DNA from: an uncultured Candidatus Rokubacteria bacterium
GTDB lineage: Bacteria > Methylomirabilota > Methylomirabilia > Rokubacteriales > DASRDR01
Direction: 5' to 3'
Length of the DNA: 64,000 nucleotides
Assembly: GCA_963749975.1 (NCBI GenBank)
Contig: CAVVOZ010000025.1
Coordinates: 1 to 64,000, forward strand
Below are positions 7,337-15,884 of this stretch, in pieces; the stretch's first letter is position 1, and each line of letters opens with the position of its first letter. Position numbers and translations under genes: made by a program. The notes below the pieces were generated by a model, which did not search any database, was not told where the DNA came from, and worked only from the letters and a program-made list of their open reading frames with translations.

Positions 7337-7413
7337 GGGGGGTTAGCTCAGCCCGGGAGAGCGCTGGAATCGCACTCCAGAGGCCGAGGGTTCGAATCCC
7401 TTACCCTCCACCA
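7337..7413 (+). tRNA. tRNA-Ala (anticodon CGC)
   Basis: Cloverleaf read by hand: acceptor GGGGGGT/ACCCTCC with a G3:U70 Ala identity pair, U8 A9, and D-stem GCTC/GAGC. The anticodon stem CTGGA/TCCAG has loop ATCGCAC, giving anticodon CGC. The T-arm is GAGGG-TTCGAAT-CCCTT, followed by discriminator A and an encoded CCA. Confidence 0.85.
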
Positions 7414-8754: not shown

Positions 8755-9251
8755 TATGAGGCTCGCCCGGCTCGCAGCCCCCGCCACCTTCGGCCCTGGC
8801 CTTCGTCGTCGCGCCGCTCGCTGTCGAGGCACAGACGCCGCAGCGAGTCTTCCGAATCGGGATGCTGAGTATGGCGGCCCGGCCTCCCGATATCTCAACG
8901 TACCCTCCGGGGTTCATCTCAGGACTACGAGCCCTCAGGTGGGTCGAGGGTCAGCACTACGTGCTGGAATACCGGTTTGCCGACGGAAGAGCCCGGTTGC
9001 CCGTCCTCGCTGCCGAACTAGTGGCTCTTCCCGTGGACGTGATCGTCGCTGTTTCGACTCCCACGGCGCTGGCCGCCAAGGCGGACGATCGGCGAATTCC
9101 CGAGCTATATGAACGTTGGTGGACTGCTCTACTACGGACCGAAGCCCGGGCAGGGTGTCGCGAGCACCGCGAGTCGGCAAGATTCTGCGAGGTGCCAAGC
9201 CAGCCGACCTGCCCGTCGAGCAACCCACGAAGTTCGAGCTGGTCATCAACC
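8755..9251 (+). pseudogene. ABC transporter substrate-binding protein remnant (5' part plus penultimate exon), with frameshifts and an internal deletion
   Basis: A signal peptide is followed by …RVFRIGMLS…LRALRWVEGQHYVLEYRFADGRARLPVLAAELVALPVDVIVAVSTPTALAAKA…. Then GKILRGAKPADLPVEQPTKFELVIN ends exactly at the intron 5' GTGCG. Confidence 0.55.
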
Positions 9252-11191
9252 GTGCGTCCAGAGAAAGCTGACGTGTTCAGCGGGAGTCAGTCCCGCCGGG
9301 GTAAGAGCCAGAGCCCCGTAACGCGGATGGCAGCGTGGAGGGGAACCGAGACGCTGAAGCCCATCGACCAAGCCCTCGGAAGGAGGGTGAGTGAGTCCCC
9401 GGGCCGTAACGAAAGTGAACGCAGAGGTGGCCCAGAAAGACTACAGCCCCGGAGGCCGAGCCCCATGGTTGAGAGGCGAAGGCCGCATGGCCCGTCGCAG
9501 CTGGCCGACGCGGCGGGACACTCCGGCGGGGTGAGAGCGACGGCACGGTGACGAGGACACGTCGAGCGACTGGAGAAGCCCTCCTCGCCCCACCGCGAAA
9601 GCGGCGGAGCCATGTCCAAGCTATAACCAGTGTCCCTGGGAAGTGGGCGGACGGCGAGAGGGTGGCGGACGGGTTCGCAGTAGCGGGGAAGCGGGGTAAT
9701 GCCCGTGGAGCGAAGGGGCCCGACTGGTCGGCACGTCCTCCGACAACATGGGAGGCAGGGGCGCCATGACAGCGGCGCCCATCAGTCTGCAAGACCTGAG
9801 GCGGAGGATCTACGTCAAGGCGAAGGCCGAGAAGCACTGGCGGTTCTGGGGCCTGTACGTCCATGTGGGCAAGCTGGAGACTCTGCGCGCGGCCTATGCG
9901 ATGGCCAAAGAGAACAACGGCGCCCCGGGCATCGATGGGGTGACGTTCGAGGCGATCGAGGACGCGGGCGTCGAAGGGTTTCTGGTGCAGCTCCGGGACG
10001 AACTGGTCACACGCACCTATCGGCCACTGCGGAACCGGCGCGTCGAGATTCCGAAGGGCGAGGGCAAGGTCCGCGTCCTGGGGATTCCGGCAATTCGGGA
10101 CCGGGTGGTCCAAGGGGCGCTCAAACTCATCGTGGAACCGATCTTCGAGGCGGACTTTCACGACGGGTCGTATGGGTATCGACCGAAGCGGACAGCCGCG
10201 CAGGCGGTCGACCGGGTGGCCGAGGCGATCGTGCGGAACAAGACGCGGGTGATCGATCTGGATTTGGCGGCCTTCTTCGACAGCGTGCGGCACGACATGC
10301 TGCTGGCGAAGGTGGCCCGGCGGGTCCAGGACGTCGAAATCCTGCACGTGTTGAAGCTGATCCTGAAAGCCTCCGGCAAGCGAGGAGTGCCTCAGGGCGG
10401 GGTGATTTCGCCCCTTCTCAGCAACGTGTACCTCACCGAGGTGGACGCGATGCTGGAGCGGGCGAAGGCCGTGGCACGGACCGGCGCACATGGGTACGTG
10501 GAGTACGCGCGCTGGGCCGACGACCTGGTGGTCCTCGTGAACAACGATCACCGGCAAGACTGGCTGGTGGAGGCGATACCCCGGCGACTCCGAGAAGAGT
10601 TCGCCAAGCTCGACCTGCAAGTGAACGAGGGGAAGAGTCGGATCGTGGACCTGAGTCGGGGGGAGAGCTTCGGATTCTTGGGCTTTGACTTCCGGCGCGT
10701 CCGCTCGCTGCGGGGGCGCTGGCGGCCGCAGTACATGCCGCAGCTGGCGAAGCGAACGGCGGTGCTGCGGAAGCTCAAGGCGGTGTTCCGGCGCTACGTC
10801 TCATGCTCGGTGGCGCGGGTGATCGCGGAGATCAATCCGATCCTCCGAGGGTGGGCCAACTACTTCCGGATCGGGCACGCGAGTCGGTGCTTTGGCTTCG
10901 TGCGCTGGTGGGTCGAGAAGCGGGTGCGGCGCCACATGATGCGGGCGAGGAATCGACGGGGCTTCGGCTGGACGAGGTGGAGTACGGCCTGGCTCTACGC
11001 CACGCTCGGGCTCTATGCGAACTACCGAGTGCGGTATGTGCCCCGGCCGGACAGTGCTCCCAGCCGATAGGTCGCATAACCCATGACGCGAAGCGATCAG
11101 GAAAGCCCGGTGCCGGAAATCGGCACGCCGGGTTTGATGCGGCGGGGGCTGGAAACGGGCCGACAGGTACCGCGCCAGTCCTCGACCCTAC
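9252..11191 (+). mobile_element. bacterial group II intron (about 1.94 kb) with the intron-encoded protein in domain IV
   Basis: The 5' end is GTGCG at 9252. The RT ORF lies at 9766-11070. A domain V-like hairpin, aAGCccggtgccggaaatcggcacgccggGttt, is at about 11103-11140. A D6-like hairpin has a bulged A at -7. The 3' end is …ccctAC. Exon 1 and exon 2 (at 12725) join in frame as FELVIN|LKTAK. Confidence 0.8.
9766..11070 (+). CDS. group II intron reverse transcriptase/maturase (no En domain evident)
   Basis: RT motifs are present: GIPAIRDRVVQ, YGYRPKRTAAQA, FFDSVRHDML, PQGGVISPLLSNVYL and YARWADDLVVL (the YADD box). A maturase X region follows (RGWANYFRIGHAS). Confidence 0.9.
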   Translation: MTAAPISLQDLRRRIYVKAKAEKHWRFWGLYVHVGKLETLRAAYAMAKENNGAPGIDGVTFEAIEDAGVEGFLVQLRDELVTRTYRPLRNRRVEIPKGEGKVRVLGIPAIRDRVVQGALKLIVEPIFEADFHDGSYGYRPKRTAAQAVDRVAEAIVRNKTRVIDLDLAAFFDSVRHDMLLAKVARRVQDVEILHVLKLILKASGKRGVPQGGVISPLLSNVYLTEVDAMLERAKAVARTGAHGYVEYARWADDLVVLVNNDHRQDWLVEAIPRRLREEFAKLDLQVNEGKSRIVDLSRGESFGFLGFDFRRVRSLRGRWRPQYMPQLAKRTAVLRKLKAVFRRYVSCSVARVIAEINPILRGWANYFRIGHASRCFGFVRWWVEKRVRRHMMRARNRRGFGWTRWSTAWLYATLGLYANYRVRYVPRPDSAPSR

Positions 11192-12724
11192 TGATATGGA
11201 AGGACCGGCGTCAAGCGGTGGCGTGAGGTCCGGACTTCTGGTCCGGGTGTCCAGTGTGTGGGACACAGTCCCGAGGGGGGCGGCGCCGAGACGATGAGGC
11301 GGCTTCGACGACGAATCACCCTGATATGCGCGGGTTGCCCCGAAGGGCCGAGCCGCATGACCGTGGTTCGTCGGGAGCTGCCTCCGTCTCAGGGAGCGCG
11401 AGTCGCCGGAGAGGGCGTCGCAGAGGTTGAGTCGAGGGCTCTCCAATCGTGCCTGCATCGTCCTGGCGCCGCCCGTCCTCGGGAAGCTCATGCAACTCTC
11501 AGTGGGGGAACGCGGGCCATTGCCTACGCCGCGACTCCCTGGGGGTCGACCCGGGTCATCACCGCCCAGAGAAAGCCGAGCAGTTCCCGGGCGACCGCGA
11601 CGACCGCGATGGGCGCCCGTTTGCCATGCCCGACGAGGTGCCGGTAGCGCCGATGGAGTCGCTGCTGGGCTTTCCAGGCGTGGGCCACGATCTCTCGGGG
11701 CTGGTGCTGGATGCGGAGGGCAATGGCGCGACCGAGGCGGGGACCGTGCCGATAGTGCCAGGCCGCTTCGACGAGGATCCGCCGCACGTGGGCGTTCCCA
11801 GCCTTGGTGATCCGGCCCTGGCGGTGGGTGTCGCCCGAGGAGTGCTCACTCGGCACCAGCCCCACGTAGGCCATGAGCTCGCGGGGCGTGCGGAACCGCC
11901 GGAAGTCCACGAGCTCGGCGAGGAGAATCATCGCGCCGAGCGTGTCGATGCCGCGGAAGCACCGCAGCCAGCCGACCGGCTCGCGGTACGGGGCGCGCTC
12001 GGCGAGGGCCTCGATCTCCCGGTCGAGCTCGGCCAGGCGCACTTGGGCCTGCTCGACGGCGAACAGCGTGGCGTCGAAGGTGCGCTGCAGCTCGGACAGG
12101 TCGAACCGCTGCGCCCGGAGCCACGTCCAGTGGGGCTGTCGCCAATGGGTGCCGGTGCGATAGACCCGACCATGCCGGAAGAGGAACTTGACGAGCCGAT
12201 GGCGCCAGCGCACGACATCCTCGCGGATGTCGTCCCGGCAGCGCAGGAGGTCCCGGACCGCTTCCTCGGCCTCGTTCGGCACATGGATCGGGGTGAGCTC
12301 GCCGGCGCGATAGAGCCGGACCAGCTTGGCTGCGTCGCGGCGATCCGTCTTGATCCGCTGCCCAGGGCGTCGCGGCGTCAGGGCTGGGGCGATCACATCG
12401 CACGGCACGCCGACGGCCGTGAGCTGCCGGTGCAGGTCGTAGCCGGACACGCCGGCCTCGTAGCAGACGCGGACCGGGCCCTCGCGCATGAGGCGCTCGA
12501 CGAGCCGGCGGAGGAGCCGCGGCTCGTTCGGGATCTGCCGCAGCTCCGGCTCGCGTTCCCCTGGCCGCAGGATCCCCGCGGTGATCGTCCGCTTGCTGTC
12601 ATCGAGGGCCACGTAGGTAGTATCCTTCTCCATGACCGGCCTCCTTTCGCCTGTGGCTCTGTTCTTCCCCCAAGGGGAACAACCCACGTATACGCGATAG
12701 GTAGGCCGGTCCTTCCATATGGTC
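11192..12724 (-). mobile_element. IS110-family (IS1111-like) insertion sequence, about 1.53 kb, abutting the intron 3' end
   Basis: A 16-bp perfect inverted repeat, ATATGGAAGGACCGGC, lies at 11194-11209 and as the reverse complement at 12705-12720. A DEDD transposase is encoded inside. The element sits between intron nt 11191 and exon-2 nt 12725. Confidence 0.7.
11524..12633 (-). CDS. IS110-family DEDD transposase
   Basis: The N-terminus reads MEKDTTYVALDDSKRTI (DEDD_Tnp_IS110 motif). The C-terminus has the transposase_20 region (…RFRTPRELMAYVGLVPSEHSSGDTHRQGRITKAGNAHVRRILVEAAW…). Confidence 0.85.
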   Translation of the reverse strand: MEKDTTYVALDDSKRTITAGILRPGEREPELRQIPNEPRLLRRLVERLMREGPVRVCYEAGVSGYDLHRQLTAVGVPCDVIAPALTPRRPGQRIKTDRRDAAKLVRLYRAGELTPIHVPNEAEEAVRDLLRCRDDIREDVVRWRHRLVKFLFRHGRVYRTGTHWRQPHWTWLRAQRFDLSELQRTFDATLFAVEQAQVRLAELDREIEALAERAPYREPVGWLRCFRGIDTLGAMILLAELVDFRRFRTPRELMAYVGLVPSEHSSGDTHRQGRITKAGNAHVRRILVEAAWHYRHGPRLGRAIALRIQHQPREIVAHAWKAQQRLHRRYRHLVGHGKRAPIAVVAVARELLGFLWAVMTRVDPQGVAA

Positions 12725-12786
12725 TCAAGACCGCGAAGACGCTCGGCCTCACCATCCCGCCCGTCGGTGTTGGCGCGGGCGGATGA
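12725..12786 (+). pseudogene. 3' exon of the ABC substrate-binding protein gene (…LKTAKTLGLTIPP-SVLARADEVIQ*), with a 1-nt frameshift
   Basis: It continues exon 1 in frame. The C-terminal motif matches the paralogous fragment at 15468..15884 (…[23 protein letters not shown]). Confidence 0.5.
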
Positions 12787-12827
12787 GGTGATCCAGTGAT
12801 CGGGCCGCTCATCCGCTGTCGTCTGGG

Positions 12828-13292
12828 GTGGACGCTGGTGGCGAGGACGACCGCGTGCGCCTGGTGATGGTCGGAGGCACTCGGAACGTCTGGGTCTGGC
12901 TCGAAGCGGAGACGGCGGAGGAGATGGTAGCCTTGCAGGCGTGTGCCGCCCGGGCAGAGTGGACAAACGGACGCGGGGCGGAGGCCATCGCAAGGCTCCG
13001 TGCCCTGGCGGAGCGATTAGGTTACCCGGTCAGGGACCCGAATCACCAGGTACGCCCGGTTCCGCCGTGTCTGGTCATCGTACGGCGTGGCGAGGGTGCC
13101 CTCTACGAGCGACTGACCACGATCGCGCGGGACAACGTCACGGTGGTCTGGGACCGACGCCAGAGCCAACGCCGGAGTGCGGATCGGCCGGCCGCGGCCG
13201 AGCGTCGACGGCAGGACCGGCGGCAGTCGCCGCCGCCCACGTGGGCCACGCTGGGCTTCCTCCTGGTGCAGTTCGAGGATGCGTCCCCATGA
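12828..13292 (+). CDS. hypothetical protein with an Arg-rich DRRxxxRR…ERR repeat tail
   Basis: …LVIVRRGEGALYERLTTIARDNVTVVWDRRQSQRRSADRPAAAERRRQDRRQSPPPTWATLGFLLVQ. It is a paralogue of 13437..13925. Confidence 0.5.
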   Translation: MDAGGEDDRVRLVMVGGTRNVWVWLEAETAEEMVALQACAARAEWTNGRGAEAIARLRALAERLGYPVRDPNHQVRPVPPCLVIVRRGEGALYERLTTIARDNVTVVWDRRQSQRRSADRPAAAERRRQDRRQSPPPTWATLGFLLVQFEDASP

Positions 13293-13436
13293 CCCCGCCC
13301 ATCTGGCTCGACGCCGCTCGCCGGCCGCGTCCCACGCGAGCCTGCTGGACCTGTGGCCGGGGGCCACGCTCGTCGGCGTCATTCTGGCCATGATCGTCCT
13401 CAAGTTGATGGACGTGGGCCGCTCGCGGGGGCGGAT

Positions 13437-15467: not shown

Positions 15468-15884
15468 TCACTGGATGATCTCGTCTGCGCGCTGCAGCAG
15501 CGACTGCGGGATTGCGAGCCGGAGCGCCTTCGCGGTCTTGATGACGAACTCGAACCTCGTCGGCTGCTCGATGGGGAGATCGCCAGGCTTCGCGCCATTG
15601 AGAATCCGGTCCACGTAGCTCCCGACGCGCCGGTAGAGATCCGCCTGATGTGCCCAGTAGGACATGAGGCCGCCGGCGTCCGTGAACGACCGCGTACCGT
15701 ACATGGCGGGCAGGCGATACTTGGCCGCGAGGTCTGCCAGCTGGGTTCGATGAAAGAAGCACAGCGGGTCTGCCACGCGGCACCCCTGACGTCGACACGG
15801 CCCGCGGTACGCCGACCTTGGCGTGCACCGGCTGGCCATCCAGCCGCACACGATGGAGGGATCCGCCATGGATGAGCTGATCAC
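15468..15884 (-). pseudogene. ABC transporter substrate-binding protein C-terminal fragment (paralogue of the 8755/12725 remnant)
   Basis: …[90 protein letters not shown]. The N-terminal part is missing. Confidence 0.6.

What the first reader, a model, noticed from the sequence alone, without database searches (positions are those of the whole stretch)
9170..12790. Nested mobile elements: group II intron plus IS1111-like element precisely between two in-frame exons of a substrate-binding-protein gene
Exon 1 ends …ACGAAGTTCGAGCTGGTCATCAACC at 9251, encoding …PTKFELVIN, immediately before the intron 5' GTGCG. After the intron 3' end (…CCCTAC, 11191) an IS110-family element follows directly. It has 16-bp inverted repeats (ATATGGAAGGACCGGC at 11194-11209 and 12705-12720) and a DEDD transposase. 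Exon 2 then starts at 12725 (TCAAGACCGCGAAG…). Joining exon 1 and exon 2 gives the family-typical …FELVIN|LKTAK(T/A)LGLTIPP…ADEVIQ*, exactly as in the paralogous fragment at 15468. So the IS occupies the intron/exon-2 junction to the nucleotide. Either the IS inserted at the splice junction, or the intron homed next to a pre-existing IS. Both mobile-element ORFs are intact although the host gene is decayed.
Basis: seen in the sequence. Interest (0 to 1): 0.7.

Follow-up and report, generated by a model that had tools for sequence, protein, structure and literature searches.

The report
Intron and IS share one target
A self-splicing group II intron and an RNA-guided insertion sequence sit side by side in a dead transporter gene because each homes, on its own, to the same nucleotide of a conserved motif in that gene family, and the insertion sequence most likely arrived first.

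Summary
A 1,940-nt group II intron (9252-11191) is followed directly by a 1,533-bp IS110/IS1111-type element (11192-12724). Both lie between two remnants of a decayed PF04392 substrate-binding-protein (SBP) gene, and the joined exons read ...FELVIN|LKTAK...

At least eight near-identical intron copies sit at ...ATCAACC|T(C/G)AAGACC... in different SBP genes, with no IS. Six independent insertions of the closest IS relatives (80-94% transposase identity) sit at ...TCAAC-CT-CAAGAC... in other SBP genes, with no intron. So both elements use the same site. The intron inserts between the C and T of the IS's duplicated CT core.

Covariation across 75 relatives located the IS's guide RNA (seekRNA/bridge RNA type). 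In the window its first guide reads CUCAAC-CU. That matches the end of exon 1 (5/6 positions) and not the end of the intron (1/6).

The IS therefore most likely entered an intron-free gene. The core duplication kept exon 1 plus a following T, and the intron then homed there. Both elements are ordinary members of known kinds.

The parts
8756..9251 (+). 5' remnant ('exon 1') of a decayed PF04392 ABC-transporter substrate-binding-protein gene. It has a signal-peptide frameshift, an internal deletion of about 150 codons and a further frameshift, and it ends ...PTKFELVIN(C).
   Evidence: Residues encoded around 8844-9050 are 46% identical to residues 7-75 of the SBP in L171 (E 2e-12). 9116-9250 matches PF04392 positions 242-270. 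Frames were read.
9252..11191 (+). Group II intron, 1,940 nt, 5' GUGCG ... 3' CCCUAC.
   Evidence: Rfam hits. Identical ends in 8 or more copies with different flanks.
9278..9414 (+). Intron domain I-IV motif (Rfam group-II-D1D4-4).
   Evidence: 112.8 bits against gathering score 49, full model 1-138.
9467..9472 (+). Candidate EBS1 (GGUUGA), complementary to IBS1 UCAACC, the last 6 nt of exon 1.
   Evidence: It is the only 6-mer complement of the exon 1 end within the first 520 nt of the intron. Its place in the domain I fold is inferred, not modelled.
9766..11070 (+). Intron-encoded protein, 434 aa (440 aa from the ATG at 9748): reverse transcriptase plus maturase, with no room for a DNA endonuclease domain.
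   Evidence: RVT_1 at 4.6e-29 and GIIM at 9.1e-16; the protein ends 30 aa after GIIM. The identical 434-aa protein P0121 is in public data.
11101..11191 (+). Intron domains V and VI. The AGC triad stem starts around 11104, and the bulged branch-point A is at 11185, 7 nt from the 3' end.
   Evidence: RF00029 full-length alignment ending at 11191: 38.0 bits, E 3.8e-5.
11191..11192 (+). First copy of the CT core. The C is the last intron nucleotide (formerly the last nucleotide of exon 1). The T serves as the +1 nucleotide of the intron's 3' exon.
   Evidence: Comparison of IS-only sites (TCAAC-CT-G-ATATGG) with intron-only sites. The AG core, which reads CT on the + strand, occurs at both ends in 75 of 76 relatives.
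11192..12724 (-). IS110/IS1111-type insertion sequence, 1,533 bp including one core copy. The transposase gene is antisense to the SBP gene.
   Evidence: Homology with relatives starts and stops at these positions. Ends were defined in 87 loci.
11194..11209 (.). Subterminal inverted repeat at the right end of the IS (ATATGGAAGGACCGGC on the + strand).
11303..11446 (-). Predicted guide RNA (seekRNA/bridge RNA type) in the 330-nt non-coding region 3' of the transposase gene. It has two stem/internal-loop modules, one target-binding and one donor-binding.
   Evidence: RNAalifold consensus over 62 distinct relatives; pairs are kept in 58-62 of 62, with a few compensatory changes. Guide-flank covariation. 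No Rfam family matches it.
11424..11432 (-). Guide 1 (5' strand of the target loop), ACUCAAC-CU. It equals the sense strand of the exon 1 end plus the CT core.
   Evidence: The columns aligned to 11426-11429 are complementary to flank positions +1 to +4 in 95, 93, 88 and 71% of 75 relatives, MI up to 1.40 bits. In the window the match is 5/6 with exon 1 and 1/6 with the intron.
11386..11396 (-). Guide 2 (3' strand of the target loop), CUCCCUG-AG-AC. On the gene sense strand it specifies CT-CAgG, against the actual exon 2 start CT-CAAG.
   Evidence: Flank positions -1 and -2 are identical to the guide in 97% and 92% of relatives. Alignments.
11320..11329 (-). 3' strand of the donor loop, GCAUAUC-AG-G. 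It matches the IS right end plus the core, followed by a handshake-like base.
   Evidence: Sequence. The column at 11320 equals flank position +1 in 73% of relatives. In the window it is G, which fits exon 1 (G) and not the intron (T).
11524..12633 (-). DEDD transposase/recombinase gene, 369 aa, intact, with an AAGGAGG ribosome-binding site upstream and the motif GLVPSEHSSG.
   Evidence: PF01548 at 1.2e-12 and PF02371 at 8.5e-22. Translation. Thousands of homologues.
12705..12720 (.). Subterminal inverted repeat at the left end of the IS.
12724..12725 (+). Second copy of the CT core. The T is the first nucleotide of exon 2.
12725..12799 (+). 3' remnant ('exon 2') of the SBP gene: (L)KTAKTLGLTIPP, then a 1-nt insertion at 12760-12762, then SVLARADEVIQ*.
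   Evidence: Sequence. The joined peptide scores 41.5 bits on PF04392. 79-88% DNA identity to the exon 2 of other SBP genes.

Best explanation
Two unrelated site-specific mobile elements, each of which finds its target by RNA-DNA base pairing, have the same target. The target is the conserved DNA ...GTCATCAAC-CT-CAAGACC..., which encodes ...VIN-L-KT... near the C-terminus of PF04392 substrate-binding-protein genes. Relatives of both elements come mostly from Rokubacteria/Methylomirabilota-like soil and groundwater metagenomes.

The group II intron has an RT/maturase protein without an endonuclease domain. It recognises exon 1 through EBS1 GGUUGA pairing with IBS1 UCAACC, and it inserts between the C and the T.

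The IS has a DEDD recombinase, 16-bp subterminal inverted repeats and a 3' non-coding region that encodes a two-loop guide RNA. It recombines at the CT core, with guide 1 (CUCAAC-CU) reading one flank and guide 2 (C(C/U)UG-AG-AC) reading the other.

In this gene copy the IS most likely inserted first, into an intron-free site. Because the CT core is duplicated, the left junction still read ...ATCAACC|T..., that is, the whole 5' exon plus the invariant +1 T. The intron could therefore retrohome there, giving exon 1 - intron - IS - exon 2.

The reverse order is disfavoured, because an intron already in place removes the five flank nucleotides (TCAAC) that guide 1 reads.

Shown here: both target sites, the boundaries of both elements, the core duplication, and the guide positions with their match to exon 1.

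Inferred: the order of arrival; that the intron can still splice onto the IS sequence; and that the intron now prevents the IS from excising, because the target-derived flank that excision needs is gone on one side.
For: Intron target. WIN and L163, L164, L165, L168, L169, L171, L172 and L173 carry the same 1,940-nt intron at ...GT(C/G)ATCAACC|T(C/G)(A/C)... in different SBP genes. None has an IS, and +1 T is invariant. IEP identity is 94-100%.

IS target. L161, L162, L136, L166, L175/L177 and L176 have 80-94% transposase identity to the window copy. All sit at ...TCAAC-CT|IS|CT-CAAGAC... of different SBP genes, and none has an intron.

Guide RNA. Across 75 non-redundant relatives, flank positions +1 to +4 are complementary to four adjacent non-coding-region columns in 95, 93, 88 and 71% of cases (MI 1.40, 1.37, 1.32 and 0.78 bits). 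Flank positions -1 and -2 are identical to two other columns in 97% and 92%.

Specificity of the guide. 69 of 74 relatives pair at 3 or more of the 4 positions, against 14.5% when flanks are shuffled. L167, a relative at 82% identity with different guides (CGUCUGCU), sits at a matching different target...CGTCTG-CT.

The window copy. Guide 1 pairs at 4/4 (5/6) positions with the exon 1 end and at 1/4 (1/6) with the intron end. The handshake-like base at 11320 also fits exon 1.

Relative age. The intron is 99.8-99.9% identical to other copies, so it arrived recently. The nearest IS copies are only 87-90% identical in DNA.

An IS-only homologue. L161 shares 636 nt of exon 2-side flank with the window (79.6% identity) and has the IS but no intron.

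3' exon requirement. L174 shows the intron inserted head-to-tail against another intron copy, so an authentic 3' exon is not required.

Literature. IS1111/IS110 elements need the correct target-derived flanks to excise (PMC11187229, Discussion; PMC13626964, Main).
Against: - The order of events is inferred from guide-flank complementarity and relative divergence. It was not observed.
- How many guide mismatches this particular recombinase tolerates is unknown.
- Guide 2 of the window copy mismatches exon 2 at one position (CAgG against CAAG).
- The intron's EBS2, its EBS3 and the requirements of its protein were not modelled. Homing into a site whose 3' exon is IS DNA is plausible but untested.
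- L174 could be an intron circle or an assembly path and not a genomic tandem.
- RF00029 is 2 bits below its gathering score.
- All data come from metagenome assemblies.
Confidence: 0.8

Rival explanations
1. The intron came first. The IS later inserted into the intron/exon 2 junction CCCTA-CT-CAAG, using only the CT core and the exon 2 half-site.
For: The CT core is present at the intron/exon 2 junction too. Guide 2 and the core would still match. 5 of 74 relatives sit at sites that pair with guide 1 at 2 or fewer of 4 positions, so poorly matched insertions, alignment errors or later mutations do occur.
Against: Guide 1 pairs with the intron end at 1 of 6 positions and with exon 1 at 5 of 6. 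All six other independent insertions of this lineage are in intron-free sites. None of the other loci fetched through the transposase carries this intron: the only reverse-transcriptase hit was a 35%-identical fragment in L051, and 15 of them searched with Rfam gave no group II intron. The intron copy is much younger than the IS copy (99.9% against about 88-90% identity to the nearest copies).
Confidence: 0.1
2. The two elements are functionally associated. Either the IS specialises in intron 3' ends, or the intron specialises in IS ends, so that they travel as a unit.
For: They abut exactly in the window. The DNA that encodes the IS's guide 1 (GACTCAACC|TCTG, minus strand, 11424-11437) mimics the intron's IBS1 plus +1 T.
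Against: Each element is found many times without the other at the same site. No other composite was seen in 177 loci. The flanks of the wider IS family are diverse genomic sites that follow each copy's own guides.
Confidence: 0.03
3. The assembly is chimeric: an intron-bearing SBP gene and an IS-bearing SBP gene were joined wrongly.
For: Both elements are multi-copy repeats in metagenomes, and SBP paralogues are similar to one another.
Against: The two kinds of locus share at most 4-5 nt (C|TGA) at the junction, far too little for a k-mer or overlap mis-join. Exon 1, the intron, the IS, exon 2 and the downstream flank are collinear in one contig, with consistent decay of the host gene. Reads were not available.
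Confidence: 0.03

Closest known systems
IS1111-family insertion sequences with a seekRNA (ISEc11, ISPa11, ISKpn4/ISPst6; Siddiquee et al. 2024, PMC11187229)
   Same: DEDD transposase with the PF02371 C-terminal domain and a GLxPxxxxSG motif. Subterminal inverted repeats. A long non-coding region 3' of the transposase gene. A guide RNA in which the top-strand match lies 5' of the bottom-strand match. A single specific target per lineage, with natural re-direction by changed guides (L167 against the SBP-targeting clade).
   Different: The repeats are 16 bp, against the usual 11-13. The terminal extensions are 3 nt and 1 nt (5 and 3 with the core), not 7 and 3. The transposase is 369 aa, against 330-350, and is only about 29% identical to the ISKpn4-type protein. 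The closest named relatives are ISEc45 (42%) and ISSso6 (41%). The target is a conserved coding motif of a paralogous gene family, whereas the best-known targets are REP, attC or transposon-end sequences.
IS621 / IS110 bridge-RNA recombinases (Durrant et al. 2024, cited from my own knowledge and not read here; Hiraizumi et al., PMC13626964)
   Same: A CT core dinucleotide at both junctions. A two-loop RNA with target-binding and donor-binding loops, each reading both flanks. Handshake-like positions. A predicted dependence of excision on target-derived flanks.
   Different: Here the RNA gene lies downstream of the recombinase gene, not in the left end upstream of it. The order of the guides is reversed. 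Subterminal inverted repeats are present. No biochemical data exist for this element.
Endonuclease-less bacterial group II introns that retrohome using mainly 5'-exon base pairing (for example RmInt1 of Sinorhizobium meliloti; comparison from my own knowledge)
   Same: An RT-plus-maturase protein without a D/En domain. Many near-identical copies at one conserved site. An invariant +1 nucleotide and a variable remainder of the 3' exon.
   Different: The homing site is a conserved coding motif in a multi-copy SBP gene family, not an IS element. The phylogenetic class of this intron was not determined here.
IS1111-attC elements and group IIC-attC introns, which both target integron attC sites (PMC3001079)
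   Same: This is a precedent for an IS1111-type lineage and a group II intron lineage converging on the same repeated target sequence, in a fixed orientation.
   Different: At attC sites the two insert near each other in a structured recombination site. Here both use the same dinucleotide in a protein-coding sequence, and both occupy one gene copy in tandem.

Membership tests
Group II intron | Conserved 5' GUGYG and 3' AY boundaries | tested here: met
   GTGCG at 9252 and ...CCCTAC at 11191. The same ends occur in 8 or more copies with different flanks.
Group II intron | Ribozyme domains: domain I-IV motif, domain V with the catalytic triad, domain VI with a bulged A | tested here: met
   RF02003 scores 112.8 bits against gathering score 49. 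RF00029 aligns over its full length at 38.0 bits, E 3.8e-5, which is 2 bits below gathering; the bulged A at 11185 is 7 nt from the end. A full six-domain fold was not modelled.
Group II intron | Intron-encoded reverse transcriptase/maturase in domain IV | tested here: met
   RVT_1 at 102 bits and GIIM at 58 bits.
Group II intron | EBS-IBS pairing with the 5' exon | tested here: inconclusive
   A unique 6-nt EBS1 candidate, GGUUGA (9467-9472), is complementary to UCAACC. EBS2 and EBS3 were not identified, and the position of EBS1 in the fold was not verified.
Group II intron | Splicing and retrohoming activity | not testable with these tools
   Indirect only: copies 99.8-99.9% identical sit at the same site in different genes.
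IS110 superfamily (DEDD transposases) | N-terminal DEDD RuvC-like domain plus the C-terminal PF02371 domain with a conserved SG | tested here: met
   PF01548 at 48.3 bits and PF02371 at 77.8 bits. GLVPSEHSSG is in the translation.
IS110 superfamily (DEDD transposases) | Site-specific insertion with a short shared core and no ordinary target-site duplication | tested here: met
   A CT (AG) core at both junctions in 75 of 76 relatives and in the window.
IS1111 family (sensu Siddiquee/Partridge and Hall) | Subterminal inverted repeats | tested here: met
   A perfect 16-bp pair, conserved in 87 loci. It is longer than the usual 11-13 bp (PMC11187229).
IS1111 family (sensu Siddiquee/Partridge and Hall) | Terminal extensions of 7 (or 6) bp and 3 bp beyond the repeats | tested here: not met
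   The extensions are ACC (3 nt) and C (1 nt) beyond the repeats, or 5 and 3 nt if the core is counted.
IS1111 family (sensu Siddiquee/Partridge and Hall) | Long non-coding region downstream of the transposase gene, encoding a guide RNA with the top-strand match 5' of the bottom-strand match | tested here: met
   A 330-nt region 3' of the transposase gene. Covariation places the top-strand-complementary guide about 35 nt 5' of the bottom-strand guide. Expression of the RNA was not tested.
IS1111 family (sensu Siddiquee/Partridge and Hall) | Transposase related across its full length to that of IS1111 | tested here: inconclusive
   No IS1111 reference sequence was at hand. The ISKpn4-type protein (IS1111 family) is 28.6% identical over 72% of the query. 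ISEc45 and ISSso6 are 41-42% identical over 96-97%. No phylogeny was made.
PF04392 ABC-transporter substrate-binding protein (host gene) | Match to the family profile running continuously across the exon junction | tested here: met
   The joined, frame-corrected peptide scores 41.5 bits (cut-off 25.9) over profile positions 245-293. Without frame correction it scores 30.2 bits. The N-terminal remnant is 46% identical to an SBP.

The most novel reading that the evidence does not exclude
The identity of the two target sites may not be chance. The intron lineage and the IS lineage would then be competing for, or exploiting, the same dinucleotide of a multi-copy gene family. The interaction would be asymmetric: an IS-occupied site stays open to the intron, an intron-occupied site is closed to the IS, and intron arrival strips the IS of the flank it needs to excise and so immobilises that copy. 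On this reading the intron acts as a natural 'lock' on an RNA-guided recombinase. In addition, the DNA encoding the IS's guide 1 (UCAACC|U) is a built-in decoy or pseudo-homing site for the intron's EBS1.
Probability: 0.15. Interest if true: 0.65.

Novelty: new member of a known kind. Interest (0 to 1): 0.5.

Why it matters
This is a natural case in which two RNA-guided DNA-insertion systems read the same 12-14 bp of a conserved coding sequence: a group II intron RNP and a seekRNA/bridge-RNA recombinase.

- It shows that IS110/IS1111-type elements can be programmed in nature onto a conserved codon motif of a paralogous gene family.
- It supplies about 75 guide-target pairs from uncultured soil and groundwater bacteria that define the guide positions of this subfamily.
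- It yields testable rules for how two such elements interact at one site: only one order of arrival is allowed, and the intron is predicted to block IS excision.

For genome annotation, it explains why PF04392 genes in these metagenome-assembled genomes are so often interrupted at FELVIN|LKTAK.

Tried and rejected
1. Exact-protein look-ups of the window's transposase and of the 440-aa IEP found nothing. The 434-aa form of the IEP was found later.
2. I suspected that several relatives (L010, L085, L099, L095 and others) also sat beside intron 3' ends, because their flanks looked like domain VI. An Rfam E-value search of 15 such loci found no intron, and their flanks are ordinary diverse sequence. 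I rejected the idea. The apparent similarity reflects related guides or chance.
3. Folding the non-coding-region RNA alone was not more stable than shuffles (z = 0.53). The structure rests instead on the family consensus and on guide-flank covariation.
4. No intact copy of the 18-nt target occurs elsewhere in the window, even with 3 mismatches allowed.
The organism is inferred only from the relatives' record titles.
6. Synteny of L161 with the window holds only on the exon 2 side, so it is weak support for an ancestral IS insertion and not proof.
7. EBS2 candidates (GACCA at 9366, ACCAG at 9626, CAGCT at 9498) could not be told apart.
8. The intron's phylogenetic class was not determined.

Full report
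**1. What is there**

The window is 70% G+C. A decayed PF04392 (ABC_sub_bind) substrate-binding-protein gene runs on the + strand from 8756.

- Its N-terminal remnant is 46% identical to residues 7-75 of an SBP from locus L171.
- About 150 codons are then missing and the frame shifts.
- 9116-9250 encodes ...ILRGAKPADLPVEQPTKFELVIN (frames).

At 9252 a group II intron starts with GTGCG.

- Rfam RF02003 (D1-D4) matches 9278-9414 at 112.8 bits.
- RF00029 (DV-DVI) aligns end to end with 11101-11191, at 38.0 bits and E 3.8e-5, 2 bits under gathering. It places the bulged A at 11185 and the last nucleotide at 11191.
- The ORF at 9766-11070 carries RVT_1 and GIIM and has no room for an endonuclease domain.

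From 11192 to 12724 lies an IS on the minus strand.

- It has perfect 16-bp subterminal inverted repeats at 11194-11209 and 12705-12720.
- It has a 369-aa DEDD transposase gene at 12633-11524, with PF01548 and PF02371 and the motif GLVPSEHSSG.
- A 330-nt non-coding region lies 3' of the transposase gene.

Exon 2 resumes at 12725 (TCAAGACCGCGAAG...). It has one extra C at 12760-12762 and ends at the stop 12797-12799.

The joined, frame-corrected peptide scores 41.5 bits on PF04392, contiguous over profile positions 245-293. Exon 1 alone scores 17.8 bits. The exon continuity is therefore real.

**2. Boundaries and the shared core**

I fetched 160 loci that encode relatives of the transposase. 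Homology to the window's IS begins and ends at window 12724/12725 and 11190-11192.

In 87 loci with both repeats the element reads as follows, in the transposase orientation: AG-AC(A/C)-ATATGGAAGGACCGGC ... GCCGGTCCTTCCATAT-C-AG. The dinucleotide AG, which is CT on the window's + strand, occurs at both junctions. This is the CT core known from IS621 (PMC13626964).

In the window the junctions read CCCTA[CT]G-ATATGG ... CCATAT-GGT[CT]CAAGACC. The first core is made of the last intron nucleotide and a T. The second ends with the first nucleotide of exon 2.

The uninterrupted gene would read AAC[CT]CAAG. The core alone therefore cannot tell which element came first.

**3. Where each element normally goes**

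*The intron.* The IEP has 94-100% identical relatives in public metagenomes. Their contigs carry the same 1,940-nt intron, 96-99.9% identical.

- Its 5' flank is ...TTCGAGCTGGT(C/G)ATCAACC and its 3' flank is T(C/G)AAGACCGCCAAGG... in eight further SBP genes with different flanks: L163, L164, L165, L168, L169, L171, L172 and L173. None has an IS.
- The +1 T is invariant. Position +2 is C or G.
- A unique 6-mer in intron domain I, GGUUGA at 9467-9472, is complementary to the last six exon nucleotides.

*The IS.* The closest relatives are L161, L162, L136, L166, L175/L177 and L176, with 80-94% transposase identity (look-ups).

- They are all inserted at ...(A/G)TCAAC-CT|IS|CT-CAAGAC... in six further SBP genes, in the same orientation. 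None has an intron.

So both elements use the same site, and the intron's insertion point lies inside the IS's core dinucleotide.

**4. Reading the IS's guide RNA**

IS1111-type elements encode a seekRNA in the 3' non-coding region. It has a segment complementary to the top strand of the target, followed by a segment that matches the bottom strand (PMC11187229).

I aligned the last 360 nt of 75 non-redundant relatives and computed mutual information between flank positions and alignment columns.

- Flank positions +1 to +4 on the right side, in IS orientation, are complementary to four adjacent columns (window 11426-11429) in 95, 93, 88 and 71% of loci. MI is 1.40, 1.37, 1.32 and 0.78 bits.
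- Left-flank positions -1 and -2 are identical to two other columns in 97% and 92% of loci.

The alignment shows the architecture ...CCUCG-[guide 1, ending in CU]-AUGCGAC...hairpin...GACUCGCG-[guide 2: NNN-AG-AC]-GGAGGC. A second module follows, whose 3' strand reads CAUAUC-AG-N. That is the IS right end, the core and a handshake-like base.

A consensus fold over 62 distinct sequences supports two stem/internal-loop modules. Rfam has no family for this RNA.

69 of 74 relatives pair at 3 or more of the first 4 positions. With shuffled flanks the figure is 14.5%. Natural re-direction is visible: L167 (82% identical transposase) carries guide 1 CGUCUGCU and sits at ...CGTCTG-CT, whereas the SBP-targeting clade carries CUCAACCU.

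**5. Order of events**

The window's guide 1 is ACUCAAC-CU (11432-11424, minus strand).

- With the flank as it stands, the intron end ...CCCTA, it pairs at 1 of 6 positions.
- With the exon 1 end ...TCAAC, it pairs at 5 of 6, and at 4 of 4 for the covarying positions.
- The handshake-like base at 11320 (G) also fits exon 1 and not the intron.
- Guide 2 (CCCUG-AG-AC) fits exon 2 (CT-CAAG), with one mismatch.

The IS was therefore aimed at the uninterrupted gene. Once it was in, the left junction read ATCAACC|TGATATGG, which keeps the entire 5' exon and the invariant +1 T. A reverse transcriptase without an endonuclease domain needs little of the 3' exon; this statement rests on established knowledge of En-less introns, not on a test here. 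L163 and L171-L173 have TGA at +1 to +3, as the IS junction does. L174 shows the intron directly abutting another intron copy in front of exon 2, so the 3' exon can be replaced.

Supporting but weaker evidence:

- The intron copy is 99.8-99.9% identical to other copies, whereas the nearest IS copies are 87-90% identical in DNA.
- L161 shares 636 nt of the exon 2-side flank with the window at 79.6% identity, and has the IS without the intron.

I put 'IS first, intron second' at about 0.8 and the reverse order at about 0.1.

An assembly chimera is unlikely. The two kinds of locus share only 4-5 nt at the junction. Reads were not available to check this.

**6. Consequences (inferred)**

- The intron can probably still splice, joining exon 1 to antisense IS RNA, so it can stay a source of mobile RNPs if it is transcribed.
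- The IS copy has lost the target-derived flank on the guide 1 side. [quoted passage not shown] For IS621, the excision complex pairs the right-target guide with the core-RT flank (PMC11187229 Discussion; PMC13626964). This copy is therefore predicted to be unable to excise, although it may still supply protein and RNA in trans.
- The model predicts that composites occur only as exon 1 - intron - IS - exon 2.

**7. Comparison with known systems**

Each element is an ordinary member of a known kind.

The IS has IS1111-type organisation: subterminal repeats, a 3' non-coding region, and the same order of guides. It departs from the canonical family in four ways:

- repeat length: 16 bp against 11-13;
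- terminal extensions: 3 and 1 nt against 7 and 3;
- transposase length: 369 aa against 330-350;
- sequence: 29% identity to the ISKpn4-type protein, and 41-42% to ISEc45 and ISSso6.

I therefore call it 'IS110 superfamily with IS1111-type organisation' and do not assign it to the IS1111 family proper.

A precedent for an IS1111-type lineage and a group II intron lineage converging on one repeated target is the attC site of integrons (PMC3001079). There the target is a structured recombination site and the two do not use the same dinucleotide.

Given a conserved block of about 50 nt, the chance that the intron's insertion point falls inside the one CT the IS uses is roughly 1 in 50. This is a post-hoc estimate. 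The coincidence is notable, but it could be chance.

**8. Verdict**

The elements lie in tandem at a shared target and are not nested, and the either/or is resolved in favour of the intron homing next to an IS already in place.

Novelty: new members of known kinds, with an instructive interaction. Interest: 0.5.

Noticed in passing
window 15468-15884 (- strand): A second, truncated PF04392 fragment, of which only about the C-terminal 90 aa match the profile. It reads ...[12 protein letters not shown]... and lacks 6 nt (one TCAACC/CCTCAA unit between TCAA repeats) at exactly the site used by both the intron and the IS. The deletion removes the CT core and IBS1, so this copy would be immune to both elements. 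Whether it is a slippage deletion or a scar is unknown.
   Followed up: partly
L174 1-2059 (JGI Ga0376049_0213934): The last 99 nt of an intron copy are followed directly by a complete second copy (junction ...CCCTAC|GTGCG...), and then by exon 2 (TGAAGACGGCG...). This is either a head-to-tail tandem made by homing into an already occupied site, or reads from an intron circle.
   Followed up: partly
L165 2643-3530: This copy of the intron (96% identical) is itself interrupted after intron nucleotide 44 by an 888-bp insert with no convincing ORF. Part of the insert recurs in L012 8875-9077 at 80% identity. A DDE transposase gene lies about 0.5 kb upstream of the 5' exon, which is truncated to about 25 nt. 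SBP genes in these genomes seem to collect mobile DNA.
   Followed up: partly
window 11424-11437 (- strand): The DNA encoding guide 1 of the IS (GACTCAACC|TCTG) reproduces the intron's IBS1 plus the +1 T, and is complementary to the intron's candidate EBS1 (GGUUGA, 9467-9472). The IS therefore carries a partial pseudo-homing site for the intron, and its guide RNA could pair with the intron RNA. No intron was seen at that position in any IS copy.
   Followed up: no
L010 3497-3525, compared with window 11169-11191: The flank of an unrelated IS copy shares an 11-nt identity (ACCGCGCCAGT) with intron domain VI at the same offset from the IS end. L010 has no detectable group II intron. This is unexplained and may be chance.
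   Followed up: partly
L161 4501-5129, compared with window 12725-13359: An IS-only relative shares exon 2 and about 560 nt of downstream sequence with the window (79.6% identity). That sequence includes the 154-aa ORF at window 12828-13292, of unknown function. Beyond the last 53 nt of exon 1 the upstream side is unrelated.
   Followed up: partly
L012 5103-6521 and L023 4788-7106: Two relatives of the IS are themselves interrupted, by inserts of about 1.4 kb (in the non-coding region) and about 2.3 kb (in the transposase gene). The inserts were not identified. They are not this intron.
   Followed up: no
L175 944-1941, L176 and L177: Three contigs carry the same 3'-truncated remnant of the IS, ending at the equivalent of window 11724. 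Between them they cover two different SBP sites: L175 and L177 share one, and L176 is the other. In L175 a neighbouring decayed SBP gene has an unoccupied site, GTCGTCAAC-CT-CAGAACGG.
   Followed up: partly
window 7337-7410 (+ strand): A tRNA gene (Rfam RF00005, 62.8 bits) lies about 1.4 kb upstream of the decayed SBP gene. Neither its anticodon nor any link to the mobile elements was examined.
   Followed up: no
L163 2019-2045: In this intron copy only about 27 nt of SBP exon 1 precede the intron, and they end ...ATCAATA instead of ...ATCAACC. That gives two mismatches to the candidate EBS1. The sequence further upstream is unrelated to SBP genes, while exon 2 is complete.
   Followed up: no
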